Shown here one piece after another: positions 9,248-45,039 of a stretch of DNA of 64,000 nucleotides. The notes beneath the pieces were generated by a model, which was given only the letters and a program-made list of their open reading frames with translations, was not told the origin of the DNA and searched no databases. The DNA is from an uncultured Fibrobacteraceae bacterium. GTDB taxonomy: Bacteria; Krumholzibacteriota; Krumholzibacteriia; LZORAL124-64-63. The number at the start of each line of letters is the position of its first letter. Positions within the stretch are counted from its first letter, which is position 1. The translations under genes were made by a program, and so were the position numbers. The DNA lies in NCBI GenBank assembly GCA_964524645.1, contig CAZGEC010000009.1, forward strand, positions 7,403-71,402, in the 5' to 3' direction.

Positions 9248-9294
9248 AATCGCGGCCGGGATGCCGGTCCGGCCGGAAGAAGGCAAGAAGTAAA

Positions 9295-9319: not shown

Positions 9320-9348
9320 GCGTGCGTGGGTCGAACGCGGTGCCCCGC

Positions 9349-12766: not shown

Positions 12767-12769
12767 GCC

Positions 12770-13699: not shown

Positions 13700-13708
13700 G
13701 AGGTCGGC

Positions 13709-15724: not shown

Positions 15725-16010
15725 CCGGCCCGGGCCCGAAGCGGTGCGAGAATGGGGAGCCTGCAAGGTTCCCATACCGAAAGGGATGCAGCGCCCGCTC
15801 TGCCAGGAATTCCTTCAATGGCTTTCATTTAGGTCGAAGTCGGGCTTGCTTCCGTGGCTCGCCTGTTGCGCTTTTTAGCGACTGATTGATGGTCCGCGAG
15901 CCCGTCTTGCCTCCCTGGGGGCACAACAAATGAGACTTGCGGGGCAGCAGCGGCCCACGTCATCGGTGCGGGGACGGGGCGGAGCCGGTGCCCGGGAAGG
16001 GACCAGGAGC

Positions 16011-21000: not shown

Positions 21001-21152
21001 AAGCGGCCGTGCCCGGCGCCCTGACCCGCCCCTGCTGCGGCTCCGCCTCCGAGCCCGGCACGGATCCGGCGGAGGTCCCGGGCAGCGTCGCCTTCCGGCT
21101 GGACGAGGCGACCTGGCGCCAGCTGCAGATCCCGCTGCCCATCACCGAGTGA
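18075..21152 (+). CDS. Large hypothetical bitopic membrane protein (1025 aa)
   Basis: About 330-aa N-terminal globular region (MDVMAVIEQLLYGYHAESGQPGRTLLARSPGVSQE..), then a Pro/Ala/Arg-rich low-complexity linker, a single TM helix FAFLIAMVLVLLLAGAAYLLG, and a ~640-aa mostly helical C-terminal region. No recognisable catalytic motif. Confidence 0.55.
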   Translation: MDVMAVIEQLLYGYHAESGQPGRTLLARSPGVSQECAAEIIRYCEAWGGIPVGHSFRPALLSFPLQGGIPSLPGRLFAVIRIAAASEDGRGAEKLSVGQLLELESAGVPSDDSPVVAPIPLFHAVVLSESDFAAFGENPYALALENIFLDRWAPGLILDRREVHPASLAPLVSPLPTESDVDLIGEALRQYFAKGKLILPLTASDEQSDRFLALLVAALPLRLKRGLRFASFAVSDANSYTLAAIYREGQSFRGWQRLLMAHLPGTMNQEAERYLAAVKQTLARSDLLGLEKLSRQNLGEIRLQAEKPAASSPGVLAATITSRAAPAPAPTPWAAATSVARTPNVGRGRPGSKPAARTGSHRRPARRRPARLPAGRRPSFAFLIAMVLVLLLAGAAYLLGTHGGKWFAARPAEEEETAGASLLGVIDVGALYEAELNGFLDAQLGQGGKASSKGAAKALSALRIGAAEDLGQQARLFVDLAHEGIQLPARPEREKERLQALAQRGAVIEHEMQRLLLAYYAFDSGILWRDLGDLEERRLQARYDSLARRQGEALARISQEMALTDVMPALHAASMEATGMSQLVTQFSRKERDRSWVETTEKAAQSLSGHRLAPGTAAYRTSAFLMIRLKRAEDSAGFGRLAFARDYEQQIWLPATVREILPAMRSHAARFGKEGVPPLFTATVAFYDDLERVPQVLAAGSSAEMYGLIRKLADSRALAFDPATYQDHVDRLRTAAVAVLHGRGTNPHDLPSNLFPAGDRETTLAFLQLCRSGAAAEEWGEVANLTSVPFFARWAAAEAQAARQARVRLQGNFDEVYRDLGRAASSLAGLAAAGQDWTGSYLSLRKDVIRALATYRTQLAGDSGRSAQLARLEALAARLDSPLPLVLKAVTVRLGAGALTEPTQVILELLAEDGRSLLRTPAFAVGPSAPAGTGWVGTQDLDLQIQVRAGERLRAVLQRADDQSALLVTTYEAEGEAAVPGALTRPCCGSASEPGTDPAEVPGSVAFRLDEATWRQLQIPLPITE

Positions 21153-32374: not shown

Positions 32375-32602
32375 GCTCTTGCACTCCTTGCGGGGGACGC
32401 CGGGCACTCCGTCTCCGATCCGAAATAAACGCCTGTTGCGTCCCGGCGTCGGGGTTCTAATATCGCTCCACGGTTCCATCGGCGCCAGCCCTTAGGCTCC
32501 GGCAGCCGGATGGCGCCGCGGCGATGGCAATTTCTGCCGGATGGCTTATATCACCTTGGACGACGGTTCCTGCGAAACCCACGCCAGGAAAGGAAGGTCG
32601 TG

Positions 32603-33625
32603 ATGGCGATACGACTGGGAATCATGGGCTTCGGCCGGCTAGGCCGGAACATGTTCCGCATCGCGTACGACAACCCGGATTTCGACTTCGTCGCGGTCAG
32701 CGACGTCGCGGACATCGAATCCCTGCGCTACCTGCTGCAATACAGCACCATCGAGGGGCGCTTCGCCGCGGAAGTCAAGCGGGAGGGCTCCTACCTGGTG
32801 GTGGGACCGCAGCGCACGCGGGTCCTGAAAGGGGCGCACCCCCGCGACATTCCCTGGGACGTGCTCGGGGTGGACGTCGTGCTCGAGGCCACGGGGCAGT
32901 TCCGACACCGCGCTGAACTGCAGTACCACCTGGACGGGGGTGCCAAGCGGGTCATCCTCTCGACGCCGGCCCTCGACGCCATCGACCGCATGGTGGTCAA
33001 TGGCGTGAATGACCGGGAGCTGACCGCCGCGGATCGGATCATCTCGGGCGGCAGCAGCTCCTGCCACGCGCTAGCGCTGGTCCTGAAGATCCTCCACGAG
33101 AAGGTGGGGGTGCGGCGAGCCTTCATGACCACGGTCCACGCCTACACCAGCGATCAGCAGCTGAGCGACACCGCCAAGCCCAGCCTGCGCTGGAGCCGCT
33201 CTGCCGCCCAGAACATCATCCCCAACCATAGCTGGGCGCCGCAGGCCGTGGCCGAAATCCTGCCGGCCCTGAGGGGCAAGATCTCCGGCATGGCGTTGAA
33301 CGTGCCCGTGCCCGCCGGCTCCAACATCGACCTGGTGAGCGAGCTGGAGAAGCCGCTGTCCGTGGACGAGGTCAACACGATCTTCCGGGAAGCCGCCGCG
33401 GGTCCCTACCGGGGGCTGGTGGCCTACACGGACGAGCCCATCGTCTCCAGTGACGTCGTCGGCAACTCCGCCTCGGTCCTGTTCGACGCCCAGGCGACGC
33501 TCTCCCTCGGCAACGGCATGATCAAGACGGTGGGCTGGTACGACAACGGCTGGGGTTTCGCGTACCGGATGCTGGAGCTGGCCCAGCTGCTGGGTCGGAC
33601 CATCGAGTCGCAGGAGGTGGCGTGA
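32603..33625 (+). CDS. GAPDH-family dehydrogenase, divergent paralog (catalytic-site variant)
   Basis: NAD-binding MAIRLGIMGFGRLGRN and TTVHAYTSDQ (His176) are conserved. Where the canonical SNASCTTNC would be, the sequence reads SGGSSSCHA, so Cys149 is replaced by Ser and a Cys is shifted +2. Confidence 0.7.
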   Translation: MAIRLGIMGFGRLGRNMFRIAYDNPDFDFVAVSDVADIESLRYLLQYSTIEGRFAAEVKREGSYLVVGPQRTRVLKGAHPRDIPWDVLGVDVVLEATGQFRHRAELQYHLDGGAKRVILSTPALDAIDRMVVNGVNDRELTAADRIISGGSSSCHALALVLKILHEKVGVRRAFMTTVHAYTSDQQLSDTAKPSLRWSRSAAQNIIPNHSWAPQAVAEILPALRGKISGMALNVPVPAGSNIDLVSELEKPLSVDEVNTIFREAAAGPYRGLVAYTDEPIVSSDVVGNSASVLFDAQATLSLGNGMIKTVGWYDNGWGFAYRMLELAQLLGRTIESQEVA

Positions 33626-34626
33626 TGAGAGTCGCGATCAACGGTTTCGGACGGATCGGCAGGGCCGTCTTCCGCCTCCTGAACAGCAAGGAGAACGTGA
33701 ACGTCGTCGCTGTAAACGACATCGCCGATCCCGCCGCCCTGGCCTACCTGCTGCGTCATGACACGGTGATGGGCCCCTTCCAGGGGTACGCCGAGATTGA
33801 GGGCGACCTCATGAAGACCCGCAACCAGCAGGTCAAGATGCTGCAGGTGGCGGATCCTCACGCGCTTCCCTGGCGCACGCTGGAGGCCGATTACGTCATC
33901 GAGTCCACCGGACGCTTCCGCAAGCGGGATCAGATCGCCACCCACCTGGAAGCCGGCGCGAAGAAGGTGCTGCTCACGGTGCCCGCCAAGGACGAGATCG
34001 ACGCCACCATCGTGATGGGCGTGAACGAGCACGAGCTGAAACCCGAGCACAAGATCGTCTCCAACGCCTCCTGCACGACGAACTGCCTGGCCCCGCTGGC
34101 CTATGTCCTGGATGCTGCCTTCGGCATCGAATACGGTCTGATGACCACCGTGCACGCCTACACCAACGACCAGCGCCTGGCCGATGTGCCGCATTCGGAC
34201 TGGCGGCGCGGGCGCTCGGCCGCAGAAAACATCATCCCCACGACCACCGGGGCCGCCCGTGCCGTGGGCAAGGTCCTGCCCCAGCTGAAGGGCAAGCTGG
34301 ATGGGATGGCCATGCGGGTGCCCATCCCCGATGGATCCATCGTGGACCTCGTCTCGGTTATGAAGCAGGAAGTAACGACGCAACAGGTCAAAGCGGCCGT
34401 GCGCGAGGCGGCCGGGACGGATCGCTTCCGCCGCATCTTGCGCTACTCCGAGGACCCGCTGGTCTCGAGCGACATCGTGGGGGATCCGCACTCATCCGTC
34501 TTCGACGCCAGCTACACCCAGGTGGTCGACGGCACCATGTTGAAGACCATCTCCTGGTACGACAACGAGTGGGGTTACTCCAACCGGGTGGTGGACCTGC
34601 TGGAGCTGATGGACTCCCTGGCCTGA
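33625..34626 (+). CDS. gap: Glyceraldehyde-3-phosphate dehydrogenase, type I
   Basis: MRVAINGFGRIGR, SNASCTTNCLAP, TTVHAYTNDQ, WYDNEWGYS. Start overlaps the upstream stop (TGATG). Confidence 0.9.
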   Translation: MRVAINGFGRIGRAVFRLLNSKENVNVVAVNDIADPAALAYLLRHDTVMGPFQGYAEIEGDLMKTRNQQVKMLQVADPHALPWRTLEADYVIESTGRFRKRDQIATHLEAGAKKVLLTVPAKDEIDATIVMGVNEHELKPEHKIVSNASCTTNCLAPLAYVLDAAFGIEYGLMTTVHAYTNDQRLADVPHSDWRRGRSAAENIIPTTTGAARAVGKVLPQLKGKLDGMAMRVPIPDGSIVDLVSVMKQEVTTQQVKAAVREAAGTDRFRRILRYSEDPLVSSDIVGDPHSSVFDASYTQVVDGTMLKTISWYDNEWGYSNRVVDLLELMDSLA

Positions 34627-34774
34627 GAAGGACGGGGAGCGGACCGGAGCGGGGGGTGCCGGCGGCAGGCCGGCCGCCTCCGCCTGCGCGGCGAGCGGAG
34701 CTACAGGCCATAATTTCGCAATAATCATATTTATATATATTTTGTTATTTCAGTCGACGCGTCGGGCGCTCGCT

Positions 34775-34802
34775 TGATAGAAACACATGCCTGTGGTAGA
34801 AT
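34775..34802 (+). promoter_or_regulatory. Near-consensus sigma70 promoter for secreted paralog A
   Basis: TTGATA -35 box, 17-bp spacer, then extended -10 TGgTAGAAT, inside an AT-rich island (ataatcatatttatatatattttgttattt). Confidence 0.5.
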
Positions 34803-34936
34803 AGCTGGAGCCGCTGGGGGAGAGGGAGTTGCCAGGAGGAATGCCGGATCCGGCTCCACACAGGCCGCTGCCGCAGGGTGCCCCGAGACGCATGTCTTCC
34901 CCCCGCGCGGCGGCAACACGCTGGGAGGTGCAACCC

Positions 34937-35671
34937 ATGCCCTTGCGAAGGACTCTGGTTCTCACGTGCTGCTGCGTCCTGGTGGCGTCCGGTGCCCTGG
35001 CCGGGAAGACACTTCACGTGCAGCGGCTGTCGGACGTCGAGGCGACGCTGCAGGCGAACGGGGGCCCGACCCGGCAGGATTGCCAGGTGGGCAACCTGAA
35101 CGTGCCCACCTACGCGATCACGGACTGGGCCTTCGGCGCCGAGGGGTACAAGTACCTCTTCCGGGCGCCGGCCACCTGTTCCTGTCCGGTGGGCTTTCGC
35201 CTGGACAGCATTCACCTGCTCATGCAGTTCGGTCCGGAGGACGTGCCCGTCGGCTTCGACGCCTTTGTCGACCTGGAGGAAGCGGTCTGGGACGACCTGA
35301 GCGGCTGCTACCTGCCGGGCGCCGAGCTGTGCACCTCGCTGGTCTACACGGTGCAGATCGATGCGGAGGGGCTGTTCGACATCTCCCTGCCCATCTTGGA
35401 GCAGTGCCAGTGCGCCGCCATCGGCTTCTGGTACTTCCTCTCCTTCCACTTCGTGAGCGAGTTCGGCGCGTCGGGACGTCCGGACCTGGTGGCCGACGGC
35501 ATGCCGCTGGGATGCCGTAGCTGGAACGACTACGGTTTCGGCTGGCAGGACCTGGTGAGCGATTTCGATTGGCCGGGCGAGATCCTGATGTACGCCGATG
35601 CGGCCTGCTGCGAGATCCCGGTGAGCGCCGAGCCGGGCACCTGGGGCAGCGTCAAGAGCCTTTACCGCTGA
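34937..35671 (+). CDS. Secreted Cys/Trp-rich protein, paralog A of a 3-member family with a conserved ...GSVKSLYR C-terminus
   Basis: GGAGGTG RBS. Signal peptide MPLRRTLVLTCCCVLVASGALAG. Shares the internal motifs G(F/Q)WG.., DY.F.W.D.. and the C-terminal GTWGSVKSLYR with 37183..37947 and 38194..38946. Confidence 0.65.
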   Translation: MPLRRTLVLTCCCVLVASGALAGKTLHVQRLSDVEATLQANGGPTRQDCQVGNLNVPTYAITDWAFGAEGYKYLFRAPATCSCPVGFRLDSIHLLMQFGPEDVPVGFDAFVDLEEAVWDDLSGCYLPGAELCTSLVYTVQIDAEGLFDISLPILEQCQCAAIGFWYFLSFHFVSEFGASGRPDLVADGMPLGCRSWNDYGFGWQDLVSDFDWPGEILMYADAACCEIPVSAEPGTWGSVKSLYR

Positions 35672-35757
35672 TACCGAGCCGGTCGGCCCCGACCTGAGAG
35701 CGAGGCGGGTGGGGAACTGCGCTCCCCGCCCGCGTCCGTCCGGAGTCCCGGCCCCGT

Positions 35758-36951
35758 TCAGGGGCCGACGTGCGCGGGCCGGAAGATGCCGAAGGCGCTC
35801 GTGAAGCCGTGCAAGTGAGTCGTTCCGCTCACCGGACCGATCTCCCCGTTGCAGAAGAAGCCGCCCAGAGGCACCTCGCCCAGGTGGGCACGAAAGCGGT
35901 TCGTGTCGTGATCGGGTACACCGTAGAGATGGAGCCCGCGTCCCAGACAGGAGAATAGCAGGGCGCCAGCCGCGGTCGGGGCGTCCGGATTCTCGGCGTA
36001 GCGGCGGAGCAGGTTCTCCAGATCCTCGGCCGAGGTCGCCGCGTCCCTCACGTGGAACTGCACCGTCTGTCCCTCCCGCAGCAGCTCGCCGACGACGAGG
36101 GCTCTGCTCTCGGTCTCCAGGCCCACGACATTGCGGATCAGGAACTCGCCAGGGCGCGGAGACGCGACGAACTCGTCCGTGAGCAAGCCCAGAAAGAGGG
36201 CCTGAGAGGCGAGTTTCCGGTCCCGGGCCGAAAGCCGGGGGACCAGGCTCTTGAGAGCCTCGAGGGCGGGCCGGCCGTCCAGCTCCAGCAGCAGGTTGCC
36301 GCGACAGCGGGTGATGTGCTGCGGCTGGCCGATGGGCCGACAGCCCTGAGCGACGATGGTGGTGATGTCGATGTTCCCGCTCAGGGCCAGGCCCACGGCT
36401 CCGGCCCGCTGCACGGCGTGGTCGACGAAGAGTAGATTCTCGCCGGGGCGCGTGGCACCGCTGGCCAGTCCGCCGATCTTGCGCCCGCTCGGATAGGCGT
36501 AGTCCAGCCCGGCCAGCAACCGGGGCACCGTGCAGCTGAACGGGTCGGCCAGGATCAGGAAGTGGGGCTGCGGTGTGGCGGGGATGCCGAGCGCATCCGT
36601 CCAGGCCCGCGGGCCGGCGTCGTCATCCGGCAGCCGTTCGTCGGTCAGCCCGAAGGGCGACACGGACACCCCGGGCAGCTCGGCGGCCACGAGCGATACC
36701 GCAGGACGCTGCTCGATCTCGTGAGCGCCGCCGATGACCCCCCCCGCCGTGCAGCCCAGCAGGTGGATGCACGGCAGCTCATCGCGCAGGAGAGCCGGTG
36801 CCTCGGTCAGGTCCGCCGCGTATTGCCCGGAGACGAAGAGAACGGCCAGGTCCACCGGATTCACCGGGAGGGCCGAGTGTATCGAGGCGGCGGCGCTGGC
36901 CACGGCCTCGGCCAGGCGGGATTGGTTGGCAATGGCCGACGCCCAGTTCAT
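35758..36951 (-). CDS. FIST-domain sensor protein (FIST_N + FIST_C)
   Basis: The C-terminal GGFFCNGEIGP motif is typical of the FIST C-domain. No TM segment or output domain. Start at MNWASAIANQ. Confidence 0.7.
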   Translation of the reverse strand: MNWASAIANQSRLAEAVASAAASIHSALPVNPVDLAVLFVSGQYAADLTEAPALLRDELPCIHLLGCTAGGVIGGAHEIEQRPAVSLVAAELPGVSVSPFGLTDERLPDDDAGPRAWTDALGIPATPQPHFLILADPFSCTVPRLLAGLDYAYPSGRKIGGLASGATRPGENLLFVDHAVQRAGAVGLALSGNIDITTIVAQGCRPIGQPQHITRCRGNLLLELDGRPALEALKSLVPRLSARDRKLASQALFLGLLTDEFVASPRPGEFLIRNVVGLETESRALVVGELLREGQTVQFHVRDAATSAEDLENLLRRYAENPDAPTAAGALLFSCLGRGLHLYGVPDHDTNRFRAHLGEVPLGGFFCNGEIGPVSGTTHLHGFTSAFGIFRPAHVGP

Positions 36952-37094
36952 TCCTCGCTCCCTGCGGGCCTGGCCGACGAGTTCCGGGTTCGATCCCCCA
37001 TTATAGTGCATTTCCCGGGGGCGGCCGCCGTCCCGGGGCGGCCAGGGTTGCCGGTGGCGATTTTTTACATATTATTCTGATCCAGGGCGGGGTA

Positions 37095-37124
37095 GTTGAC
37101 AGAAGGTCCGCTCTGTGGGACAAT
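37095..37124 (+). promoter_or_regulatory. Near-consensus sigma70 promoter for paralog B
   Basis: TTGACA, 17 bp, then extended -10 TGgGACAAT. An AT-rich island (ttttttacatattattctg) lies upstream. Confidence 0.5.
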
Positions 37125-37182
37125 CTTGATTGTCGTATTCCGATGGGGACAACCCGAGTTCCGTGTGCGAGGGGGATCCAAG

Positions 37183-37947
37183 ATGCGCGCATTGTTGCTC
37201 ATGATGCTGGTCGGGCTGCTCCTGGCGGCCGTGCCGGTGTCGGCCGCTGGCCCTCTGACCGCGGTGGACACCGGCAAGAGTACGCTGGCTGTTCCGGCGG
37301 CCAAGGTGAGCGACCTGGAAGTCTGGTGCCAGATGCCCGAGCTGACGGACTGGGCCAAGATCGCCAGCCAGATCGACACCGCCTATCCATTCGACGCCGG
37401 TGCGGCCGATGACTACGAGTCGCCCACGGACTACGCGATCACCGAGATCAAGTGGTGGGGTGGCCAGTGGAACTACGACGGCTATCCTGGAGCGGCACCA
37501 CCCTGTACGCCCGATTACTTCGTCATCACCTTCTACATGTACGACGGTTGTGCGCCGCCGAATCCGGCTCCCGTGGCACCCGACTACCTCCCGCAGAATT
37601 ACTTCCACCAGGAAGTGCTCACGATGTGGGACGAGACGGTGCTGGATCCGGGCTACGATCTCCGCGAGTACCGCGCCAACATCGGCCCGGTGCTGCAGGA
37701 CGCCGATCGCACGTACTGGATCGAGATCCAGGCGGGGCTGAACTTCGATTCCTGCGGTCAGTGGGGCTGGTTGACCACGCTGGATCCCGCCTGGGGCTGC
37801 CTCTTGCAGCGCGGCTTCCCGGTGCTGGGCCAGCCGTACTGGTCGGGCGACCCGGATGACAACGGCGTCGCCTTCTGCCTGTACTCGGATCGGACCGTGG
37901 CCGCACAGGGCCAAACCTGGGGAGCGATCAAGAACCTTTACCGGTGA
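37183..37947 (+). CDS. Secreted Cys/Trp-rich protein, paralog B (C-terminal QTWGAIKNLYR)
   Basis: Signal peptide MRALLLMMLVGLLLAAVPVSAAG. Roughly 60% identical to paralog C across QIDTAYPFD, WWGGQWN, PDYFVITFY.YDGC.PP.PAPVAPDYLP.NY, GPVLQDA, TYWIEIQAGLNF, GQWGWL, QRGFPVLG.PYW, AFCLYSD. Confidence 0.7.
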   Translation: MRALLLMMLVGLLLAAVPVSAAGPLTAVDTGKSTLAVPAAKVSDLEVWCQMPELTDWAKIASQIDTAYPFDAGAADDYESPTDYAITEIKWWGGQWNYDGYPGAAPPCTPDYFVITFYMYDGCAPPNPAPVAPDYLPQNYFHQEVLTMWDETVLDPGYDLREYRANIGPVLQDADRTYWIEIQAGLNFDSCGQWGWLTTLDPAWGCLLQRGFPVLGQPYWSGDPDDNGVAFCLYSDRTVAAQGQTWGAIKNLYR

Positions 37948-38105
37948 TCGACGGCCAGAGGCTTCAGGTTGGCGGCGAGGGACCCGGATCCCTCGCCGCC
38001 GCCTTGTTTTTGATTTTATATTCCCAAATAGATTATATCGTGAGCGCCCGCGGGTCGGCGAGGGGGCCGTCGCGATATCGGGGCATCTCTATAAGCTCAA
38101 ATTGA

Positions 38106-38133
38106 TTGACAAATTATCCTGTTTGTGGATAGA
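38106..38133 (+). promoter_or_regulatory. sigma70-like promoter for paralog C
   Basis: TTGACA, 17 bp, then tgtGGATAGAGT. Same TGTGG-then-minus-10 arrangement as the other two. AT-rich island upstream (ttgtttttgattttatattcccaaatagattatatcg). Confidence 0.45.
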
Positions 38134-38193
38134 GTCAACTCCAGTGCGGCAGAGTCTGCATGTCCACCGATGTATGCTAGAAAGGAGCCCACC

Positions 38194-38946
38194 ATGCGCA
38201 GTATGAGAATGCTTCTGGTTTCGGTCGTCTTGCTCGCCGTCGCTGCCGGTCCGGCGCTGGCCGTCGATATCACCGGGGTGCAGACCGGTACGAGCGACAG
38301 CCATGCCTCCTACACGACGGGCGTGCGCGACATCACGGTCTGGTGCCAGGTGCCCGAGCTGGTGGACTGGGCCAAGCTCTCGAGCCAGATCGACACCGCC
38401 TATCCCTTCGACTCGGGATGTGCCGAGGACTACGTGTCCGCGACGGATTACGCGCTCACCTACGTGCAGTGGTGGGGCGGCAACTGGAACTTCAGCACCC
38501 TGGCCCAGCCCGATTACTTCGTGATCACCTTCTACCAGTACAGCGGCTGCACGCCGCCCGATCCGGCCCCGGTGGCGCCGGACTACCTGCCGAACAACTA
38601 CTACTACCAGACGATCGTCACCGACTACTCCGTGGTCACCCTGGATGCCGCCAACTCCATTTACGAGTACGGCGCCGACATCGGTCCGGTCCTGCAGGAC
38701 GCGGGGGCGACCTACTTCATCGAGATCCAGGCCGGCCTGATCTTCAACCCCTACGGACAGTGGGGCTGGTTGTCCACCTCCGATCCGCGCTACGGCTGCC
38801 GTATCCAGCGCGGTTTCCCCTTGCTGGGCAACCCCTACTGGTATCCCGACCCGGACTACAACGGAACTGCGTTCTGCCTCTACAGCGACCAGTCCGTGGC
38901 CACGCAGGCCGAGACCTTCGGCGCGGTCAAGAGCCTGTACCGGTAG
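38194..38946 (+). CDS. Secreted Cys/Trp-rich protein, paralog C (C-terminal ETFGAVKSLYR)
   Basis: AAAGGAG RBS. Signal peptide MRSMRMLLVSVVLLAVAAGPALA. See paralog B. Confidence 0.7.
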   Translation: MRSMRMLLVSVVLLAVAAGPALAVDITGVQTGTSDSHASYTTGVRDITVWCQVPELVDWAKLSSQIDTAYPFDSGCAEDYVSATDYALTYVQWWGGNWNFSTLAQPDYFVITFYQYSGCTPPDPAPVAPDYLPNNYYYQTIVTDYSVVTLDAANSIYEYGADIGPVLQDAGATYFIEIQAGLIFNPYGQWGWLSTSDPRYGCRIQRGFPLLGNPYWYPDPDYNGTAFCLYSDQSVATQAETFGAVKSLYR

Positions 38947-39137
38947 TCGCCGCCATCGTCGCACACCACGAGCGGAGAGGCCCCCGGCCTCTCCGCTCGC
39001 TGCGATGGCACCGCGGGGACGGGGCCGCAATTTCGCGGGGACACGGAATCTTGTATACTTAGGCCCGGATGCTCTGGCGGCGGCCGCGCATCGACGCGCT
39101 GGTCGCCGAACTCCCGCGACCGTGAACCTGGCGCACC

Positions 39138-41192
39138 ATGCCGGGGAGGCTGATGCCCGTGACCCGTCCCTGCCAGCTCTCGATCCTCGCCGCGCTCCTG
39201 CTGCTCGGTGCCGCCCTGCCGGCGGGCGGCATACCGGTGCCCCTGGCGCCCGTTTCCAATGCCGCGCCCACCAATCCTGCACGCGCGCGGCGGCAAGCCC
39301 GCTACCTCGAGGCGGAGACCAAGATTCGCCGGGGCGCCGAATGGGCTCTCGCCGGGAAGAGCGCCGCCGGCGCCAAGACCGCGAACATGGACCTCTACGA
39401 CGTGCTCCACTACGACATCGACCTGGCGCTGAATCCCGCAACCCGGCAGCTCACGGGCTCGGTGACCACCACCGCGCGGGTGACGGGTGCGACCTTGACG
39501 GTGCTGGACCTCTACCTGCGGGCCAACATGGCGATCGGCTCCGCGCTGTCCGGCGGCAGTCCGACCACCTACAGCCGCGCCGGGGACGTCCTGAGCGTGG
39601 ATCTCGACCGGACCTATGCCGCGGGCGAGCAGGTGACGGTGCGGATCGATTACAGCGGCGATCCGGAGGGGAGTGCCTTCGACTGGGGCCAGCACGGCGG
39701 CCAGCCGTTGATCTGGACGCTGAGCGAGCCCTTCGGGGCTCGTGACTGGTGGCCCTGCAAGGATCTGAACTCGGACAAGGCCGATTCGGTGGACCTGCAC
39801 GTCACGGTGCCGGCGGGGCTGATCGTGGCCTCCAACGGCCTGCTGGTCGCGGCGGTGGACCACGGCGCCACCCGCACCTTTCACTGGCACGAGAGCCATC
39901 CCATCGCCACCTACCTGGTGAGCCTCGCCATTCATCCCTACGCTACCTTCTCCGGCTGGTACCACTACGCGCCCGGCGACTCCATGGAGCTGCAGTACTA
40001 CGTCGTGCCCGACCGCCTCGCCCAGTCCCAGGCCGCCTACGCCCCGGTCCCGGACATGCTGGCGGCCTTCGCGGGCGGCTTCGGGGAGTACCCCTTCGTC
40101 ACGGAGAAGTACGGCCATGCCCACTTCGGCTGGGGCGGGGGCATGGAGCACCAGACCCTCACCAGCCTGTACTACGGCGCCTACAGCGAGGGGGTCATCG
40201 CTCACGAGCTGGCCCACCAGTGGTGGGGCGACCTGGTGACCTGCGCCGACTTCCATCACATCTGGCTGAACGAGGGCTTCGCCACCTGGGCGGAGGCCTA
40301 CTGGCGCGAGCAGAACGAGGGGATGGCCGCCTACCACGACGAGATGGCGGACGCGGCCTACTGGGGTCCCGGCACCATCTACGTGGAAGACACCTCGAGC
40401 TTCGGCGCCATCTTCGACTTCGACCTGAGCTACCAGAAGGCCTCGTGGGTGGTGCACATGCTGCGGCACGTGCTGGGGGACGCGGACTTCTTCGCCGCCC
40501 TGCTGGCCTACCGGGAGCAGTACGCCTACGGGAGCGCCACCACCGAGCAGTTCCGCGACGTCTGCGAAGACGTCTCGGGCCAGGACCTGGATGTCTTTTT
40601 CCAGCAGTGGATCTACGGCGAGTACTTCCCGCAGTATCGTTACAGCTGGTACGCCGCGCCCGCGGGGGATTCGACCAGGGTGAGCCTCCTGGTGCAACAG
40701 GTGCAGACCGCGGCCGGCCTCTTCCGGATGCCGCTGGACGTGCGCGTCACGACCGACGAGGGGGTTTTCCCCTTCGCGGTGCAGAACGGCGAGCTGGCGC
40801 GGGCCTACGCCCTGAACGTGGCGGGCATGGTCCAGCAGGTGGAACTGGATCCCGAGCACTGGGTGCTCGCGACCGTCACCCAGGGGACGGTGGATGCGCC
40901 GGTGCTCGCCCGGCTGCGCCCGCGGCTGCTGCCGGCTTACCCCAATCCCTTCAATCCGGCGACCACGGTCCGCTTCGAGCTGCCCGCCCCCCAGGAGATC
41001 GCCCTGCGCCTGTACGATCTGCAGGGCCGCCTGGTACGCACGCTGGCGGCGGGGAGCTACGGTGCGGGTCCGCACGCACTGCCCTGGGACGGCACCGACG
41101 ACACCGGGCGCCGGGTCGCCTCGGGGACCTACGTCCTGCGCCTGGAGGCCGGCAAGACCCTGGCCGCCAGCAAGTTGACCCTGCTCAAGTGA
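39138..41192 (+). CDS. M1-family zinc aminopeptidase (aminopeptidase N-like) with a T9SS-type C-terminal sorting domain
   Basis: HELAHQWWGD...LNEGFATWAE is the HExxH(x18)E motif. GAMEN-like GGMEH. C-terminal PNPFNPATTVRFELP...YDLQGRLVRTL...WDGTDDTGRRVASGTYVLRL...LTLLK matches the Por_Secre_tail/FlgD-Ig-like domain. Confidence 0.85.
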   Translation: MPGRLMPVTRPCQLSILAALLLLGAALPAGGIPVPLAPVSNAAPTNPARARRQARYLEAETKIRRGAEWALAGKSAAGAKTANMDLYDVLHYDIDLALNPATRQLTGSVTTTARVTGATLTVLDLYLRANMAIGSALSGGSPTTYSRAGDVLSVDLDRTYAAGEQVTVRIDYSGDPEGSAFDWGQHGGQPLIWTLSEPFGARDWWPCKDLNSDKADSVDLHVTVPAGLIVASNGLLVAAVDHGATRTFHWHESHPIATYLVSLAIHPYATFSGWYHYAPGDSMELQYYVVPDRLAQSQAAYAPVPDMLAAFAGGFGEYPFVTEKYGHAHFGWGGGMEHQTLTSLYYGAYSEGVIAHELAHQWWGDLVTCADFHHIWLNEGFATWAEAYWREQNEGMAAYHDEMADAAYWGPGTIYVEDTSSFGAIFDFDLSYQKASWVVHMLRHVLGDADFFAALLAYREQYAYGSATTEQFRDVCEDVSGQDLDVFFQQWIYGEYFPQYRYSWYAAPAGDSTRVSLLVQQVQTAAGLFRMPLDVRVTTDEGVFPFAVQNGELARAYALNVAGMVQQVELDPEHWVLATVTQGTVDAPVLARLRPRLLPAYPNPFNPATTVRFELPAPQEIALRLYDLQGRLVRTLAAGSYGAGPHALPWDGTDDTGRRVASGTYVLRLEAGKTLAASKLTLLK

Positions 41193-41376
41193 TACCTGCC
41201 GCGGACGCTTGTCCCCGGTTCCGGGCCGCAACCTGTCGTTCCCCAAAACTGCGGGTTGTGCTACAATGCCCGCGGGGAGGACTTCGTCTGCCGCGGCAAC
41301 GGATTCTGCATAGCCAGGAACGCGCGTCGCGCCATCCGGTCCGGGGTCCCGCGACCCCATGAGAAAGGGTCCTGCA

Positions 41377-44300
41377 ATGAAGAGATTCGCCGTTTTCGCT
41401 CTTCTCCTGTCGCTGCTGGCCGGCGCCGTCGCCGCCCGTGCGGGCGAGCTGACTCCCGGCTTGCAGGAGCAGATGCGCGGTCTCGCCGACAATGACGAGC
41501 TGAAGGTGCTCGTGGTCATGAAGGACCGCGTCGACATCGGTGCCCTGGACTGGGAGCTGCACCAGGCCAAGGTGCCGCGCTCGCTACGCCACCAGCGCGT
41601 CCTGGAAAGCCTCCAGGCTGCAGCCGAGCGCGCGCAGGCCGACCTGCTGGCCGATCTGACGAGCAAGCAGGGAGCCGGCGGCGTGCGTGGCTGGACGCCC
41701 CACTGGATCGTCAATGGCGTGGTGGTGCGGGCAACCGTCGCGGCCATCCGCGAGCTGGCGGCGCGACCGGACGTCGAGCGCATCGAGGCGGATCTCGTGG
41801 TGGAGCTGATCGAACCCGTGGCCCAGGCCGCGGCCAAATCGGACAAGGGCATCGGCCTCTGCGACGGCGTGCACGCCGTCCAGGCGGACCGCGTCTGGCG
41901 GGAGCTCGGCGTCACCGGCGTTGGAGCGATCGTGGGCAACCTGGATACCGGCGTGGACGGAAGCCACCCCGCCTTCTCCGCGCGCTGGCGCGGGCACTTC
42001 GCGCCGGCGGAGCAGTGCTGGCTGGATGCGGCCGACTTCGGCGATCCCACGCCCGTGGACCACCACTATCATGGCACCCACGTCATGGGCACCATGACCG
42101 GCCTGGCCCCCGATGACACCATCGGTATCGCGCCCGGGGCGCTGTGGATCGCCAGCAACGTGATCAACCAGGGAACCGGCAGCGAGTTCGACAACGACGT
42201 CATCGCCAGCCTGGAGTGGATGGCGGACCCCGACGGGAACCCGGCCACCCTGGACGACGTGCCTGACGTGGTGCAGAACAGCTGGGGCGTGAACGAGGGC
42301 TTCAGCGGTTACTACGACTGCGACAGCCGCTGGTGGGACGCCATCGATGGTTGCGAGGCGGCGGGGGTGGTCCTGACCTGGTCGGCAGGCAACGAGGGCG
42401 AAGACGGCCCCATGACCATGCGCAGCCCCGCCGATCGGGCGGCCTCGCCCACCAACGCCTTCAGCGTGGGCTCGACGATCCGCGTGCCGCCGTACACGAT
42501 CAGCAGCTTCTCCAGCCGCGGGCCCTCGGGTTGCGGCGGTGAGTACGCCACGAAGCCCGAGGTGGTCGCGCCCGGCAGCGACATCTACAGCGCCCAGCCG
42601 GGCGGCGGCTACCAGTACCTGAGCGGCACCTCCATGGCCGGGCCCCACGTGGCCGGCGTGGTGGCGCTCATGCGCAGCGCCAATCCCGACGTAGACGTGA
42701 TCACCGTCAAGGAGATCCTGATGGCCACGGCCACGGATCTGGGCCCGGCCGGCGAGGAGAACACCTACGGACACGGTCTCGTCAATGCCTACGAGGCGGT
42801 GCTGGCGGTGATGGGCGGCCTCGGTGCCGTCGAGGGAACGGTCACCGACGCCAGCACGAGCCTGCCCCTGGCCGGTGTGCTGGTGCGTGACGTGGGCGGG
42901 TACAATACCCGCACCACCGGCGCCGACGGAGCCTACAGCATGGTGCTGACCGCCGGCGACCACACCCTGTCCTTCAGCGCCTTCGGCTACCTGGGCGACT
43001 CCAGGGTGTTCAGTCTGGCCGAGGCGGAGACGCTCACGTTGGACGTGGCCCTGGCGCCGGCGCCGACCGCCACGCTCTCCGGTCACGTCTACGATCCGGA
43101 AGGGGATCCGGTCGCGGGCGCCACGGTCACGGTGCTCGATACACCCCTGACGCCCGCGGTGACCGATCCGTCCGGCTACTACGAGATCGTCATGCCGACG
43201 GGGGCGACCTACGAGGTGCGCGCCCGCGCCAACGGTCTCGGCGCCGAGCAGGTCACCGTGGTCTTCGACGGCGACCTCGAGCAGGACTTCCACCTGCCCA
43301 TTCTCTACGCCGAGGACTTCGAGAGCGGCAACTTCCTCGTCTTCCCCTGGGAGATGAGCGGCGTCGCCGACTGGGTCATCGATACAGCCGATCCGTACGA
43401 GGGGGCCGATTGCGCCAAGTCCGGCGCCATCAGTCACAACCAGGAAACGGTCATGTCCGTGACCCTGGACGTCGTGGCGGGAGGCGATATCAAGTTCTAC
43501 TACAAGGTCTCTTCCGAGAGCGGCTACGACTACCTGCGCTTCTTGATCGACGGCTCCGAGGCCCAGAGCTGGTCCGGCACGGTGGCCTGGGCCCTCGCCA
43601 CCTTCCCCGTGGACGTGGGGACGCACACCTTCACCTGGAAGTACACCAAGGACGGCTCGGTCTCCAGCGGCAGCGACGCCGCCTGGGTGGACTTCGTCGA
43701 GTTCCCGACCATCGTCCCACCGCAGTATCCGCAGATGATCTGCTCGCCGCTGAGCTTCGAGGTCACCCTCGCCCCCGGGTCCTCGATGACCCGGCTGCTG
43801 TCCCTGGCCAACCACGGCGGGGCGGCTCTCGATTTCCTGGCCACGGTGGCCGAGGCCGTCAAGTCGCGGCCCGTTGCGACGGTCGGCAAGCCGGCCCCGG
43901 AGCTGCCCAAGGATGCGGTCGACACGCGGCCGGGCGTCGCCGCCGAGAAGGGAGCCGGCGGTCCTGATGAGTTCGGGTATTACTGGAAGGACAGCGACGA
44001 GCCGGGCGGACCGTCCTACGACTGGGTCGAGATCAACGGTGTCGGCAGTGTGGTCGGGTCCGGCGACGACTCCAACCACGGGCCCTTCGACATCGGTTTC
44101 CCCTTCCAGTACTACGGCGACTTCTACAGCAGCGTCCGGGTCTGCACCAACGGCTGGGTTTCCTTCACCTCCAGCTCCACCAGCTACACCAACAACCCGA
44201 TCCCGAACGCCGGCGATCCGAACAACCTGCTCGCCATCTTCTGGGACGACCTGAATCCCAACGACGGCGGCACCATCTACTACTACCAGGACACGGCGAA

Positions 44301-45039
44301 CGAGCGGTTCATCGTGGAATGGGACGGGGTGCCCCACTACTCGACCAGCCACAACGGGCCGCCGGTGACCTTCGAGGTGATCCTGAACATCGACGGCAGC
44401 ATCGTCTACCAGTACCAGACGACGGCCATCGTCAACGAGTGCACGGTCGGCATCGAGGACGCCGCGGGGGCCGACGGCCTGCAGGTGGTCTTCGATGCCG
44501 CCTACCTGCACGACGACCTGGCCATCCGCTTCGCCGCCGAGTCGCCCGTGCCCTGGCTGAGCCTGGATCAGCAGATCGGCACGGTGCCCCCCGGCGGCAA
44601 GCTCGATCTGCATGTCTTCTTCGACGCCGCGGACATGGCCGCGGGCAGCTATGCCGCCCGGATCCTGCTCGCCAGCAACGATCCCTCGGTCATCGCCATG
44701 GAGATCCCCGTGACCCTCCTGGTGGACGACCTCTCGGCGGCCGGAGAGGGGAGCATCCCGGAGATCATGACCCTGGAGACGCCTTACCCCAACCCGTTCA
44801 ATCCGCAGACGATCATTCCCTTCCGCCTGCCGCAGACCATGCGGGTGGAGCTGCGGATCTACGACCTGGCCGGACGCCTGGTTCGCACCCTGATCGACGG
44901 CCCGCGCGCGGCCGGCCCGAACCAGATCCTCTGGGACGGCACCGATGCCCGGGGTCGCTCCGTGGCCTCGGGTACCTACTACGCCCGCTTGATCGCCGGC
45001 GAGCAGGTCCAGGTGCGTCCCCTGGTCCTGGTGCGCTAG
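41377..45039 (+). CDS. Subtilisin-like (S8) serine protease, large multidomain, with a T9SS-type C-terminal sorting domain
   Basis: Catalytic triad DTGVD, HGTHVMGT, GTSMAGPHVAGV. Additional carboxypeptidase-regulatory-like/beta-sandwich modules. C-terminal PYPNPFNPQT..IYDLAGRLVRTL..WDGTDARGRSVASGTYYARL..LVLVR. Alternative start at 41359. Confidence 0.85.
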   Translation: MKRFAVFALLLSLLAGAVAARAGELTPGLQEQMRGLADNDELKVLVVMKDRVDIGALDWELHQAKVPRSLRHQRVLESLQAAAERAQADLLADLTSKQGAGGVRGWTPHWIVNGVVVRATVAAIRELAARPDVERIEADLVVELIEPVAQAAAKSDKGIGLCDGVHAVQADRVWRELGVTGVGAIVGNLDTGVDGSHPAFSARWRGHFAPAEQCWLDAADFGDPTPVDHHYHGTHVMGTMTGLAPDDTIGIAPGALWIASNVINQGTGSEFDNDVIASLEWMADPDGNPATLDDVPDVVQNSWGVNEGFSGYYDCDSRWWDAIDGCEAAGVVLTWSAGNEGEDGPMTMRSPADRAASPTNAFSVGSTIRVPPYTISSFSSRGPSGCGGEYATKPEVVAPGSDIYSAQPGGGYQYLSGTSMAGPHVAGVVALMRSANPDVDVITVKEILMATATDLGPAGEENTYGHGLVNAYEAVLAVMGGLGAVEGTVTDASTSLPLAGVLVRDVGGYNTRTTGADGAYSMVLTAGDHTLSFSAFGYLGDSRVFSLAEAETLTLDVALAPAPTATLSGHVYDPEGDPVAGATVTVLDTPLTPAVTDPSGYYEIVMPTGATYEVRARANGLGAEQVTVVFDGDLEQDFHLPILYAEDFESGNFLVFPWEMSGVADWVIDTADPYEGADCAKSGAISHNQETVMSVTLDVVAGGDIKFYYKVSSESGYDYLRFLIDGSEAQSWSGTVAWALATFPVDVGTHTFTWKYTKDGSVSSGSDAAWVDFVEFPTIVPPQYPQMICSPLSFEVTLAPGSSMTRLLSLANHGGAALDFLATVAEAVKSRPVATVGKPAPELPKDAVDTRPGVAAEKGAGGPDEFGYYWKDSDEPGGPSYDWVEINGVGSVVGSGDDSNHGPFDIGFPFQYYGDFYSSVRVCTNGWVSFTSSSTSYTNNPIPNAGDPNNLLAIFWDDLNPNDGGTIYYYQDTANERFIVEWDGVPHYSTSHNGPPVTFEVILNIDGSIVYQYQTTAIVNECTVGIEDAAGADGLQVVFDAAYLHDDLAIRFAAESPVPWLSLDQQIGTVPPGGKLDLHVFFDAADMAAGSYAARILLASNDPSVIAMEIPVTLLVDDLSAAGEGSIPEIMTLETPYPNPFNPQTIIPFRLPQTMRVELRIYDLAGRLVRTLIDGPRAAGPNQILWDGTDARGRSVASGTYYARLIAGEQVQVRPLVLVR

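What the first reader, a model, noticed from the sequence alone, without database searches (positions are those of the whole stretch)
34700..38946. Three paralogous secreted Cys/Trp-rich proteins with a conserved C-terminal ...G(A/S)(I/V)K(S/N)LYR tail, each behind its own strong promoter
ORFs 34937..35671, 37183..37947 and 38194..38946 encode roughly 250-aa signal-peptide proteins sharing long conserved blocks (QIDTAYPFD, WWGG.WN, PDYFVITFY, PAPVAPDYLP.NY, TY.IEIQAGL.F, GQWGWL, QRGFP.LG.PYW, AFCLYSD). Their last residues are nearly identical: GTWGSVKSLYR, QTWGAIKNLYR, ETFGAVKSLYR. Each gene is preceded by a conspicuously AT-rich island in a 70% GC genome, holding a near-consensus -35 (TTGACA or TTGATA), a 17-bp spacer, a TGTGG element and a -10 box, which suggests duplicated high-expression promoters. 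The conserved terminal KxLYR could be a novel C-terminal sorting or anchoring signal. The family resembles nothing I can name. The TonB receptor in this window ends ..CYLR, which raises the question of whether a terminal aromatic-Leu/Tyr-Arg is an outer-membrane targeting signature in this organism.
Basis: seen in the sequence. Interest (0 to 1): 0.7.

Follow-up and report, generated by a model that had tools for sequence, protein, structure and literature searches.

The report
New C-terminal tag on secreted proteins
Three small secreted proteins in this window end in the same ten-residue tail, which also caps at least 60 unrelated secreted protein families across the Bacteroidota-Fibrobacterota-Gemmatimonadota group of bacteria, so it looks like an undescribed address label for the cell envelope.

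Summary
The three ORFs, their signal peptides, their shared ...[ST][WF]Gx[VI]KxLYR-stop tails and their three near-consensus sigma-70 promoters are real. "Three paralogues" is only partly right. P2 and P3 are 60% identical and match Pfam DUF7901. P1 shares only its last 16 residues with them.

The tail is not peculiar to this window. A DNA pattern for it hit at least 119 loci in species-representative genomes (about 17 expected by chance), and every hit sat directly before a stop codon. The proteins fall into about 60 BLAST-unrelated families. 88% have signal-peptide-like N-termini, against 24% of background ORFs.

Nearly all labelled genomes are Eisenbacteria, Krumholzibacteriota, Latescibacterota, Fibrobacterota, Gemmatimonadota, Ignavibacteria or Kapaibacteria, or Bacteroidota.

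In distant DUF7901 relatives the same position holds a PEP-CTERM signal, a T9SS type A domain or a dockerin. AlphaFold2 puts the tail outside the fold, as a short low-confidence helix. No Pfam model, NCBIfam model or paper describes it.

Best reading: a modular, strictly C-terminal sorting or anchoring tag without a transmembrane segment. Its receptor is unknown and its function is untested.

The TonB-dependent receptor (CYLR) and the epimerase (GTLYR) lack the motif core, so those resemblances are coincidental.

The parts
34937..35671 (+). P1: a 244-aa secreted Cys-rich (13 Cys) beta-sandwich protein. Its family is weakly related to DUF7451. It ends ...CCEIPVSAEPGTWGSVKSLYR.
34937..35002 (+). 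Predicted Sec signal peptide of P1 (MPLRRTLVLTCCCVLVASGALA | GK).
   Evidence: Read from the sequence. The cleavage site is placed by eye from the AxA rule; no dedicated predictor was run.
35639..35671 (+). C-terminal tail of P1 (TWGSVKSLYR) plus stop codon.
   Evidence: Pattern match. AF2 models the tail as a detached helix at residues 236-243; pLDDT is below 50 for residues 233-240.
34774..34802 (+). Promoter of P1: TTGATA, 17 nt, TG-extended TAGAAT. An AT-rich island (about 34705-34760) lies upstream. The 5' leader is about 130 nt.
   Evidence: GC falls to 0.41.
37183..37947 (+). P2: a 254-aa secreted Trp/Tyr-rich DUF7901 protein ending ...QTWGAIKNLYR.
   Evidence: Pfam DUF7901 scores 35.5 bits against a cut-off of 24. 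It is 60% identical to P3. Family alignment is A1.
37915..37947 (+). C-terminal tail of P2 (TWGAIKNLYR) plus stop codon.
   Evidence: AF2 models it as a helix at residues 243-252 with low confidence.
37096..37124 (+). Promoter of P2: TTGACA, 17 nt, TG-extended GACAAT. An AT-rich stretch lies at about 37060-37085.
37970..38011 (+). Intrinsic terminator after P2 (13-bp GC-rich stem followed by a T run). It makes P2 and P3 separate transcription units.
38106..38135 (+). Promoter of P3: TTGACA, 18 nt, TAGAGT. It can also be read as a 17-nt spacer with TG-extended ATAGAG.
38194..38946 (+). P3: a 250-aa secreted DUF7901 protein, paralogue of P2, ending ...ETFGAVKSLYR.
   Evidence: Pfam DUF7901 scores 23.5 bits, just under the cut-off of 24.
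38914..38946 (+). C-terminal tail of P3 (TFGAVKSLYR, with F in place of the usual W) plus stop codon.

Best explanation
The three genes encode abundant, Sec-exported, single-domain beta-sandwich proteins, probably binding modules. Each carries the same modular 10-residue C-terminal tag, [ST]-W-G-x-[VI]-K-x-[LM]-[YF]-[RK]-COOH. A Pro/Thr/Glu-rich linker, roughly P-[VT]-[PAS]-[TV]-E-x-x, often precedes it.

Proposed mechanism:
1. After export and folding, the flexible linker presents the tag.
2. The tag forms a short amphipathic helix, with Ser/Thr as N-cap, a W/V/L/Y hydrophobic face, and K and R beside it.
3. The tag, with its free carboxyl end, is bound by a conserved envelope component specific to the FCB group and allied phyla.
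4. That component delivers the protein to the outer membrane or cell surface, or holds it there.

In function the tag stands in for PEP-CTERM, the T9SS C-terminal domain or dockerin anchors. In architecture it differs from all of them: it has no transmembrane segment, no Arg cluster and no Ig-like domain.

What is shown:
- the motif is modular;
- it is restricted to the C-terminus;
- it goes with signal peptides;
- it has a restricted taxonomic range;
- it is interchangeable with known anchors;
- it lies outside the predicted fold.

What is inferred:
- the helical shape (low-confidence prediction);
- the existence and identity of a receptor or processing enzyme;
- the final location of the proteins.
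For: 1. Two unrelated families in the window keep the tail in all of their homologues.

I estimate about 17 by chance. All matches precede TAA, TAG or TGA.

3. In six-frame translations of all loci plus the window, 137 of 139 motif occurrences are followed directly by a stop codon, and the other two by one extra residue. About 16 of these hits were not selected by the DNA pattern, so they test terminal position without selection bias.

4. 123 tail proteins fall into 60 families with no BLAST similarity once the tail is masked. Cargo domains are typical of the extracytoplasmic space:
   - lamin-tail domain;
   - LamG;
   - right-handed beta-helix and pectate-lyase-like;
   - NHL/SGL;
   - cupredoxin;
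   - M10 peptidase.

5. N-termini look like signal peptides in 51 of 58 tail proteins, against 87 of 370 background ORFs (p = 2e-21). Some are lipoproteins with a Cys-Gly-Asp-Asp-Asp start.

6. Taxonomy: 68 of the 70 loci with a phylum-level label are FCB-group phyla, Eisenbacteria, Krumholzibacteriota or KSB1.

7. "Choice of anchor". Among the best 150 of 610 DUF7901 relatives:
   - about 48 end in the tail;
   - 20 end in PEP-CTERM, of which 13 reach TIGR02595;
   - 2 end in a T9SS type A domain;
   - at least 16 end in dockerin-like modules.
   In alignment A6 the tail directly replaces the PEP-CTERM segment after the same last domain strand. Five of 35 relatives hit NCBIfam "choice-of-anchor R".

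8. AF2 leaves the tail unpacked, as a terminal helix, in both models. The helical hydrophobic moment is 0.46-0.59.

9. Tails of different families within one genome are more alike at the variable positions than tails from different genomes: 2.98 against 2.37 of 6 positions, permutation p of about 0.008. This fits co-evolution with a shared partner.

10. The motif meets five of the seven criteria Haft uses to recognise small C-terminal sorting signals (10.1101/2023.06.07.544157, read).
Against: - No receptor, sortase or conserved neighbouring gene was found.
- The tail lacks the transmembrane helix and Arg cluster that define every characterised small sorting signal.
- The helix prediction is low-confidence, and ten residues is short.
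- There is no experimental localisation for any member.
- The within-genome similarity signal is modest and is driven largely by one genome bin.
It also required a CGN Arg codon, so counts and taxonomic range are lower bounds and may be skewed towards high GC.
Confidence: 0.6

Rival explanations
1. Self-sufficient membrane or lipopolysaccharide anchor. The tail would be an in-plane amphipathic helix, like the C-terminal membrane-targeting sequences of MinD and FtsA or the PBP5 anchor. It would stick the protein to a lipid surface with no dedicated receptor or enzyme.
For: Both AF2 models predict a helix. W/V/L/Y form a hydrophobic face flanked by K and R, and the hydrophobic moment is 0.46-0.59. 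There is no transmembrane segment, and no partner gene was found.
Against: W, G and K are invariant and the terminal position is strict across several phyla. That is tighter than lipid-binding helices need, since those conserve a pattern rather than a sequence. The sharp restriction to one bacterial lineage is unexpected for a generic lipid binder. Some carriers are already lipoproteins.
Confidence: 0.18
2. Minimal type IX secretion signal. The tail would be an extremely reduced T9SS C-terminal domain that still engages PorV or SprA for export across the outer membrane.
For: The taxonomic range matches that of T9SS-type domains. T9SS-CTD proteins are the commonest neighbouring family (32 of 119 loci), and several lie in the window itself. 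Both kinds of terminus end hydrophobic-hydrophobic-basic. Shortened CTDs of 43-55 aa exist, and 22 residues sufficed for Hbp35 (PMC11969387).
Against: There is no hit to TIGR04183 or PF18962. Motifs B and D (GxY) are absent. Ten residues cannot form the two to three beta-strands of even the shortest known CTD. The tail is predicted as a helix, not a strand. Canonical CTDs are kept on other cargo in the same genome.
Confidence: 0.12
3. Docking or assembly peptide. The tail would be a dockerin-like handle or subunit-subunit contact that attaches many different modules to one abundant scaffold (an S-layer, sheath or fibre), rather than a trafficking signal.
For: The cargo are mostly small non-enzymatic binding modules. 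The strong promoters suggest abundant structural proteins. Dockerins occupy the same position in DUF7901 relatives.
Against: No candidate scaffold or cohesin-like partner was found near any locus. This rival overlaps the "anchoring" half of the main explanation and cannot be separated from it by sequence alone.
Confidence: 0.08
4. Covalent or non-covalent peptidoglycan tether, or a proteolysis tag. The aromatic-basic C-terminus recalls the ...YRK end of Braun lipoprotein, which L,D-transpeptidases link to peptidoglycan, and it recalls tail-specific protease degrons.
For: The tail ends in [YF][RK], and the Lys at position -5 is invariant. The comparison with Lpp rests on textbook knowledge and was not tested here.
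Against: The terminal residue is Arg in most cases, not the Lys that is cross-linked in Lpp. In both protein-homologue alignments it is mostly R, with K the usual alternative. The figure cannot come from the DNA-pattern loci, because that pattern required an Arg codon. Tail-specific proteases prefer non-polar ends. A degron on strongly expressed proteins from 60 families is hard to rationalise.
Confidence: 0.03

Closest known systems
PEP-CTERM / exosortase sorting signals (TIGR02595) and the other small "tripartite" C-terminal signals (LPXTG, PGF-CTERM, GlyGly-CTERM, MYXO-CTERM)
   Same: Strictly C-terminal and modular. It occurs several times per genome, on signal-peptide proteins with no other similarity to each other. 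In DUF7901 relatives it occupies exactly the position of PEP-CTERM, and the Pro/Thr/Glu linker of the tail aligns with the VPEP motif.
   Different: There is no hydrophobic transmembrane segment and no Arg cluster. The invariant residues (W, G, K) lie in the part that replaces the transmembrane helix. No TIGR02595 hit and no exosortase-like gene were seen nearby. The taxonomic range also differs: PEP-CTERM occurs mainly in Pseudomonadota, Cyanobacteriota and Verrucomicrobiota, according to 10.1101/2023.06.07.544157.
T9SS type A C-terminal domain (TIGR04183 / PF18962, here in its FlgD_ig-like form)
   Same: The same bacterial lineages and the same genomes, and the same kind of cargo (secreted enzymes and binding modules). 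Both end hydrophobic-hydrophobic-basic. A T9SS CTD replaces the tail in some DUF7901 relatives (P0193).
   Different: The CTD is a 43-100 aa beta-sandwich with motifs B, D and E. The tail is 10-17 aa, is predicted helical, and is invisible to the CTD models.
C-terminal amphipathic membrane-targeting helices (MinD, FtsA, PBP5)
   Same: A short terminal amphipathic helix with aromatic and basic residues.
   Different: Those act on the cytoplasmic face (MinD, FtsA), or are about 18-20 residues long (PBP5). They conserve a physicochemical pattern, not a sequence, and are not shared by dozens of unrelated families.
NCBIfam "choice-of-anchor" domains (e.g. choice-of-anchor R, NF041539) and Pfam DUF7901
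   Same: P2 and P3 belong to DUF7901. Relatives of that domain weakly hit choice-of-anchor R and show the defining behaviour: one domain with alternative C-terminal anchors.
   Different: P2 and P3 themselves do not reach any NCBIfam model. The anchor they use is not among the catalogued ones.

Membership tests
Small tripartite C-terminal sorting signals (criteria listed by Haft, 10.1101/2023.06.07.544157, section 5) | [quoted passage not shown] | tested here: met
   137 of 139 motif occurrences end at the stop codon; the other two have one extra residue.
Small tripartite C-terminal sorting signals (criteria listed by Haft, 10.1101/2023.06.07.544157, section 5) | [quoted passage not shown] | tested here: met
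   Three in this 64-kb window. Nine in three loci of the genome bin JBJXGV. Four in 8 kb of L051.
Small tripartite C-terminal sorting signals (criteria listed by Haft, 10.1101/2023.06.07.544157, section 5) | [quoted passage not shown] | tested here: inconclusive
   W, G and K are invariant, but they lie in the terminal ten residues. The upstream P-[VT]-[PAS]-[TV]-E is conserved only 30-40%.
Small tripartite C-terminal sorting signals (criteria listed by Haft, 10.1101/2023.06.07.544157, section 5) | Strongly hydrophobic segment long enough for a transmembrane helix | tested here: not met
   The whole signal is 10-17 residues, with K and R inside it; mean hydrophobicity is about 0.
Small tripartite C-terminal sorting signals (criteria listed by Haft, 10.1101/2023.06.07.544157, section 5) | Cluster of 2-5 basic residues at the end | tested here: not met
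   There is a single terminal R or K.
Small tripartite C-terminal sorting signals (criteria listed by Haft, 10.1101/2023.06.07.544157, section 5) | Most carriers have an N-terminal signal peptide | tested here: met
   88% against 24% of background ORFs, using a crude predictor, p = 2e-21.
Small tripartite C-terminal sorting signals (criteria listed by Haft, 10.1101/2023.06.07.544157, section 5) | Many carrier pairs share no similarity other than the signal | tested here: met
   60 BLAST families among 123 proteins with the tail masked. P1 against P2/P3.
PEP-CTERM (TIGR02595) | Match to the PEP-CTERM model | tested here: not met
   No NCBIfam hit for P1-P3 or for ten other tail proteins. The model does hit the PEP-CTERM relatives of DUF7901.
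T9SS type A sorting domain (TIGR04183 / PF18962) | Beta-sandwich C-terminal domain of about 43-100 aa with motifs B, D and E; match to the models | tested here: not met
   No hits for the tail proteins, whereas neighbouring window genes do hit. The known minimal length is taken from PMC11969387.
Outer-membrane beta-barrel C-terminal insertion signal (beta-signal) | Last strand of a beta-barrel ending in an aromatic residue | tested here: not met
   The P1 model is a soluble beta-sandwich, not a barrel. The terminal residue is R or K, and the tail is predicted helical.
Pfam DUF7901 (PF25470) | Score above the Pfam gathering threshold | tested here: met
   P2 scores 35.5 bits against a cut-off of 24. 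P3 scores 23.5 bits, just below, but is 60% identical to P2. P1 has no hit.
Pfam DUF7451 (PF24248) | Match to the model | tested here: inconclusive
   P1 itself has no hit. Eight of 27 family members hit, best E = 1.5e-6. The precomputed tables list it for most homologues.
NCBIfam choice-of-anchor R (NF041539) | Match to the model | tested here: inconclusive
   Five of 35 DUF7901 relatives hit, best E = 2.6e-5, below the cut-off. P2 and P3 do not hit.

The most novel reading that the evidence does not exclude
The tail is the address label of a protein-sorting route that has not been described. It would be a non-membrane-spanning C-terminal signal, read by a dedicated and still unidentified envelope machine shared by Bacteroidota, Ignavibacteria, Fibrobacterota, Gemmatimonadota, Latescibacterota, Eisenbacteria and Krumholzibacteriota.

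One concrete and testable sub-case: the tail is the missing substrate signal of the orphan Bacteroidota exosortase XrtF. [quoted passage not shown] I give that sub-case only about 0.05, because the tail has no transmembrane segment.
Probability: 0.3. Interest if true: 0.85.

Novelty: new variant of a known kind. Interest (0 to 1): 0.65.

Why it matters
C-terminal sorting signals such as LPXTG, PEP-CTERM and the T9SS domain have each led to a sorting machine and to a way of predicting the surface proteome. This tail marks dozens of protein families in phyla that are abundant in soils, sediments and wastewater. Most of these phyla are uncultured, and their envelope biology is almost unknown.

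If the tail is a sorting or anchoring signal, three things follow:
1. It gives a simple sequence rule for finding surface or outer-membrane-associated proteins in these lineages.
2. It points to a missing receptor or enzyme that phylogenetic profiling could find.
3. It shows that such signals need not contain a membrane-spanning segment.

A small Fn3-like protein with the tail occurs in cultured Hymenobacter and Adhaeribacter, so the idea can be tested experimentally.

Tried and rejected
1. Searching the 5.8-billion-protein collection with a profile of the tail alone. A 40-aa alignment (A5) gave only 19 candidates, all short fragments, so it yielded no census.

2. Conserved gene neighbourhoods. 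All-against-all clustering of 3,765 ORFs from 119 loci found no family linked to tail genes other than T9SS-CTD proteins and local synteny. The contexts of P0009 and P0046 share nothing. Six proteins near tail genes, five polytopic membrane proteins and one adjacent ORF, are not exosortases or proteases.

4. AFDB Foldseek search: that library was not available.

5. PDB by sequence: no relatives of either family.

6. Rfam on 34500-39200: nothing, so there is no known RNA element in the long P1 leader.

7. Literature. No paper contains the motif strings or the DUF names, and there is nothing on sorting signals in these phyla.

8. Rejected: a conserved DNA element rather than a peptide. Codons differ between copies, and the motif persists in genomes of very different sequence.

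9. Rejected: the chance resemblances of the TonB-dependent receptor (CYLR) and the epimerase (GTLYR).


Full report
THE OBSERVATION

The window is 68.5% GC. It holds three + strand ORFs at the stated coordinates: P1 at 34937-35671 (244 aa), P2 at 37183-37947 (254 aa) and P3 at 38194-38946 (250 aa). Each starts with a basic then hydrophobic N-terminus ending in an AxA-like site. I read this by eye, because no signal-peptide predictor was available. Each is preceded by a purine-rich ribosome-binding site.

The proteins end in TWGSVKSLYR, TWGAIKNLYR and TFGAVKSLYR, directly before the stop codon. P2 and P3 are 60% identical over 231 residues. P1 aligns with either of them only over the last 16 residues. 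A profile-profile comparison of the mature domains finds nothing. So there are two families here, not three paralogues.

The promoter observation holds. The consensus scan finds 5 sigma-70-like sites in 34500-39200 against 0.4 expected. The three best (10 of 12 matches) lie upstream of the three genes. They share a TGTGG element that supplies an extended -10 TG. They sit in or next to local dips to 41-50% GC. A clean intrinsic terminator follows P2 (37970-38011). The genes are therefore separate, probably strongly expressed, transcription units. A FIST-domain gene on the opposite strand separates P1 from P2.

WHAT THE PROTEINS ARE

P2 matches Pfam DUF7901 (35.5 bits, cut-off 24), and P3 scores just below the cut-off. 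P1 has no Pfam or NCBIfam hit, but 8 of 27 family members touch DUF7451 weakly.

Both families are rare. There are 12 clusters for P2 and 34 for P1 among 5.8 billion proteins. All are annotated as hypothetical proteins from metagenomes.

THE TAIL IS A MODULE

In both family alignments the last ten residues are the most conserved part shared between the families: [ST]WGx[VI]Kx[LM][YF][RK].

I back-translated this into WCNTGGGGNNNNRTNAARNNNMTNTWYCGNTRR. The pattern occurs twice in the window, against 0.00 in shuffles. My own estimate for uniform base composition is about 17 chance hits.

Several results show that these are real tails:
- All 123 matches are followed by TAA, TAG or TGA.
- A six-frame search of all loci plus the window for the peptide, with no requirement about what follows, gave 139 hits. 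Of these, 137 end at a stop codon and 2 have one extra residue. About 16 of them were not selected by the DNA pattern.
- With the last 20 residues masked, 123 tail proteins fall into 60 BLAST-unrelated families.
- The recognisable cargo domains are lamin-tail, LamG, right-handed beta-helix or pectate-lyase-like, NHL/SGL, cupredoxin and M10 metallopeptidase. All are typical of exported proteins.
- A crude signal-peptide score is positive for 88% of tail proteins, against 24% of other ORFs in the same loci (p = 2e-21).
- Some carriers are lipoproteins that begin Cys-Gly-Asp-Asp-Asp. One locus has seven of these in tandem (L059).

Upstream of the ten-residue core there is a weaker signature, roughly (C)(C/G)-P-[VT]-[PAS]-[TV]-[ER]-x-x. 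A 140-aa family made of an Fn3-like domain plus ...V(K/R)RTWGSIKAMFR occurs in Bacteroidota, Ignavibacteria, Kapaibacteria and KSB1. It includes cultured Adhaeribacter terrigena and Hymenobacter artigasi.

WHERE IT OCCURS

Of the 70 loci whose record names a phylum-level group:
- 26 are Eisenbacteria;
- 9 are Fibrobacteraceae or Fibrobacter;
- 7 are Krumholzibacteriota;
- 5 are Latescibacterota;
- 4 are Gemmatimonadota;
- 10 are Kapaibacterium or Ignavibacteria;
- 5 are Bacteroidota;
- 1 is Chlorobiaceae and 1 is KSB1;
- 2 are bins labelled "uncultured Alphaproteobacteria". Both carry the small Ignavibacteria/Bacteroidota-type family, and I suspect the labels are wrong, though I did not check.

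The other 49 loci are labelled only "bacterium". NCBI places most of the named phyla in the FCB group. Eisenbacteria and Krumholzibacteriota are unplaced there, but phylogenomic studies usually group them with FCB (my own knowledge).

The pattern required a CGN Arg codon, so low-GC genomes are under-sampled. Seven IMG/VR contigs also carry genuine tails.

WHAT THE TAIL MOST LIKELY DOES

The strongest functional clue comes from distant relatives of P2 and P3. A profile of the family found 610 proteins among 1.84 billion representatives. Among the best 150:
- about 48 end in the tail or a close variant;
- 20 are single-domain proteins of the same length (200-282 aa) that end in a PEP-CTERM signal, of which 13 reach TIGR02595;
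- 2 end in a T9SS type A domain (P0193 scores 38 bits);
- at least 16 end in dockerin-like modules (P0118 matches the GC-type dockerin model);
- others have a C-terminal hydrophobic anchor.

In alignment A6 the tail begins exactly where the PEP-CTERM segment begins, right after the last conserved strand (...AFxLxG). The tail's P-V/T-E linker falls on the VPEP motif. Five of these relatives weakly match NCBIfam "choice-of-anchor R". That name was coined for domains that appear with alternative C-terminal anchors.

By the same logic the tail is another anchor choice. It meets five of the seven criteria that Haft lists for recognising small C-terminal sorting signals:
1. it is terminal;
2. it occurs several times per genome;
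3. it has invariant residues;
4. its carriers have signal peptides;
5. its carriers are otherwise unrelated.

It fails the two criteria that define the classical tripartite design: a transmembrane helix and an Arg cluster.

AF2 does not pack the tail against either domain. It draws the tail as a short terminal helix after a low-confidence linker. On a helical wheel, W, V/I, L and Y/F share one face, with K and R beside it. Ser/Thr would be the N-cap. The hydrophobic moment is 0.46-0.59.

Tails of different families in one genome resemble each other at the variable positions more than tails from different genomes do (p of about 0.008). One bin, for example, has Gly at position -4 in eight of its nine tails (the ninth has Cys), across six BLAST families. 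This fits a shared partner that co-evolves with the tails, but the signal is modest.

My best explanation (confidence 0.6) is a modular sorting or retention tag that an FCB-specific envelope component reads at the free C-terminus.

RIVALS

1. An autonomous lipid- or LPS-binding helix (0.18). The helix prediction and the lack of a partner gene favour it. The sequence-level invariance and the lineage restriction count against it.
2. A drastically reduced T9SS signal (0.12). Its appeal is that T9SS-CTD proteins share the same genomes. They are the commonest neighbouring family, and in the window they include the M1 and S8 peptidases, a metallo-beta-lactamase and a multihaem cytochrome. However, the shortest documented CTDs still have 43-55 residues and motifs B, D and E (PMC11969387). 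The CTD models do not see the tail.
3. A dockerin-like docking peptide for a common scaffold (0.08).
4. A peptidoglycan tether or a degron (0.03).

COMPARISON WITH WHAT IS KNOWN, AND NOVELTY

No Pfam-A or NCBIfam (release 20) model covers the tail in any of the 23 tail proteins scanned. Full-text searches for the motif strings, for the DUF names and for sorting signals in these phyla found nothing.

The tail works like a PEP-CTERM or T9SS anchor, in the sense that it occupies the same position on the same kind of cargo. It is not a member of either family, because their defining features were tested and not met.

I rate it a new variant of a known kind: C-terminal sorting signals, in a form without a membrane-spanning segment.

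The most novel reading not excluded is a dedicated, undiscovered sorting machine (probability about 0.3). One speculative candidate is the orphan exosortase XrtF of Bacteroidota, whose substrates are unknown (PMC10936215). The lack of a transmembrane segment makes that unlikely (about 0.05).

LIMITS

- No localisation data exist for any member.
- Signal peptides were judged with a home-made score.
- The genome scan was truncated and biased by codon choice.
- The helix is a low-confidence prediction.
- No partner was identified.

Noticed in passing
window 1-17906: A dense cluster of multihaem c-type cytochrome genes. It includes MtrC/MtrF-like, NrfB-like and doubled-CXXCH proteins and one fusion to a cytochrome b561 domain, which suggests an extracellular or periplasmic electron-transfer module. 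ORF 13709-15724 (671 aa), inside the cluster, has no Pfam hit.
   Followed up: partly
window 9349-11253(-), 39138-41192, 41359-45039, 54261-55508(-), 61181-62605: Five proteins end in a FlgD_ig-like or T9SS type A C-terminal domain, with termini such as ...KLTLLK...PLVLVR and ...MTLVK. They are a multihaem cytochrome, an M1 aminopeptidase, an S8 subtilase, a metallo-beta-lactamase-fold protein and an unknown protein. The organism therefore uses two different C-terminal signals side by side.
   Followed up: partly
window 32510-33625 and 33622-34626: Two tandem glyceraldehyde-3-phosphate-dehydrogenase-like genes lie directly upstream of P1, with the stop of the first overlapping the start of the second. 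I identified them from the translations and did not scan them against families.
   Followed up: no
window 59063-61159: The TonB-dependent receptor ends ...SYRFSCYLR, with a terminal Arg instead of the usual terminal aromatic residue. It does not contain the tail motif. Whether outer-membrane barrels of this lineage generally end in a basic residue was not examined.
   Followed up: no
window 18075-21152: A 1025-aa ORF with coding-like GC3 has no Pfam hit.
   Followed up: no
proteins P0074, P0077, P0089, P0101, P0113, P0115, P0122 (DUF7901 relatives): A different recurring C-terminus...F(E/L)R(L/I)F..FP.AFP(L/I)LR.LLG(L/Y), sits where the tail or PEP-CTERM sits in other relatives. It may be another uncatalogued C-terminal signal.
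   Followed up: no
L016 (JAJRWB010000043.1), protein ending at locus position 1437 on the - strand: This lipoprotein is an internal tandem duplication. The first copy ends in an internal ...AQWGALKAMFR and the second in the terminal ...ASWGSVKGLFR. It is a rare internal relic of the tail.
   Followed up: no
L059 1649-6975 (JBJXGV010000065.1): Seven tandem paralogues, most of them lipoproteins starting ...LGCGDDD, carry the tail or near-variants such as TWGGLKCLFR and TWGQIKLLFSP. The acidic run after the lipobox Cys resembles the Bacteroidota lipoprotein surface-export signal (my own knowledge; not tested).
   Followed up: partly
L123-L129 (IMG/VR contigs): Seven contigs classed as viral encode proteins with genuine tails. 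Whether these are phage genes or host DNA in proviral calls was not checked.
   Followed up: no
L045 4062-4919 and L076 1736-2539: A TauE/SafE-like membrane protein gene lies next to the lamin-tail-domain tail protein in two loci, L045 and L076. The identification is by eye from the sequence; the L045 protein was listed for scanning but was not included in the family scan. This is probably local synteny rather than a functional link.
   Followed up: partly
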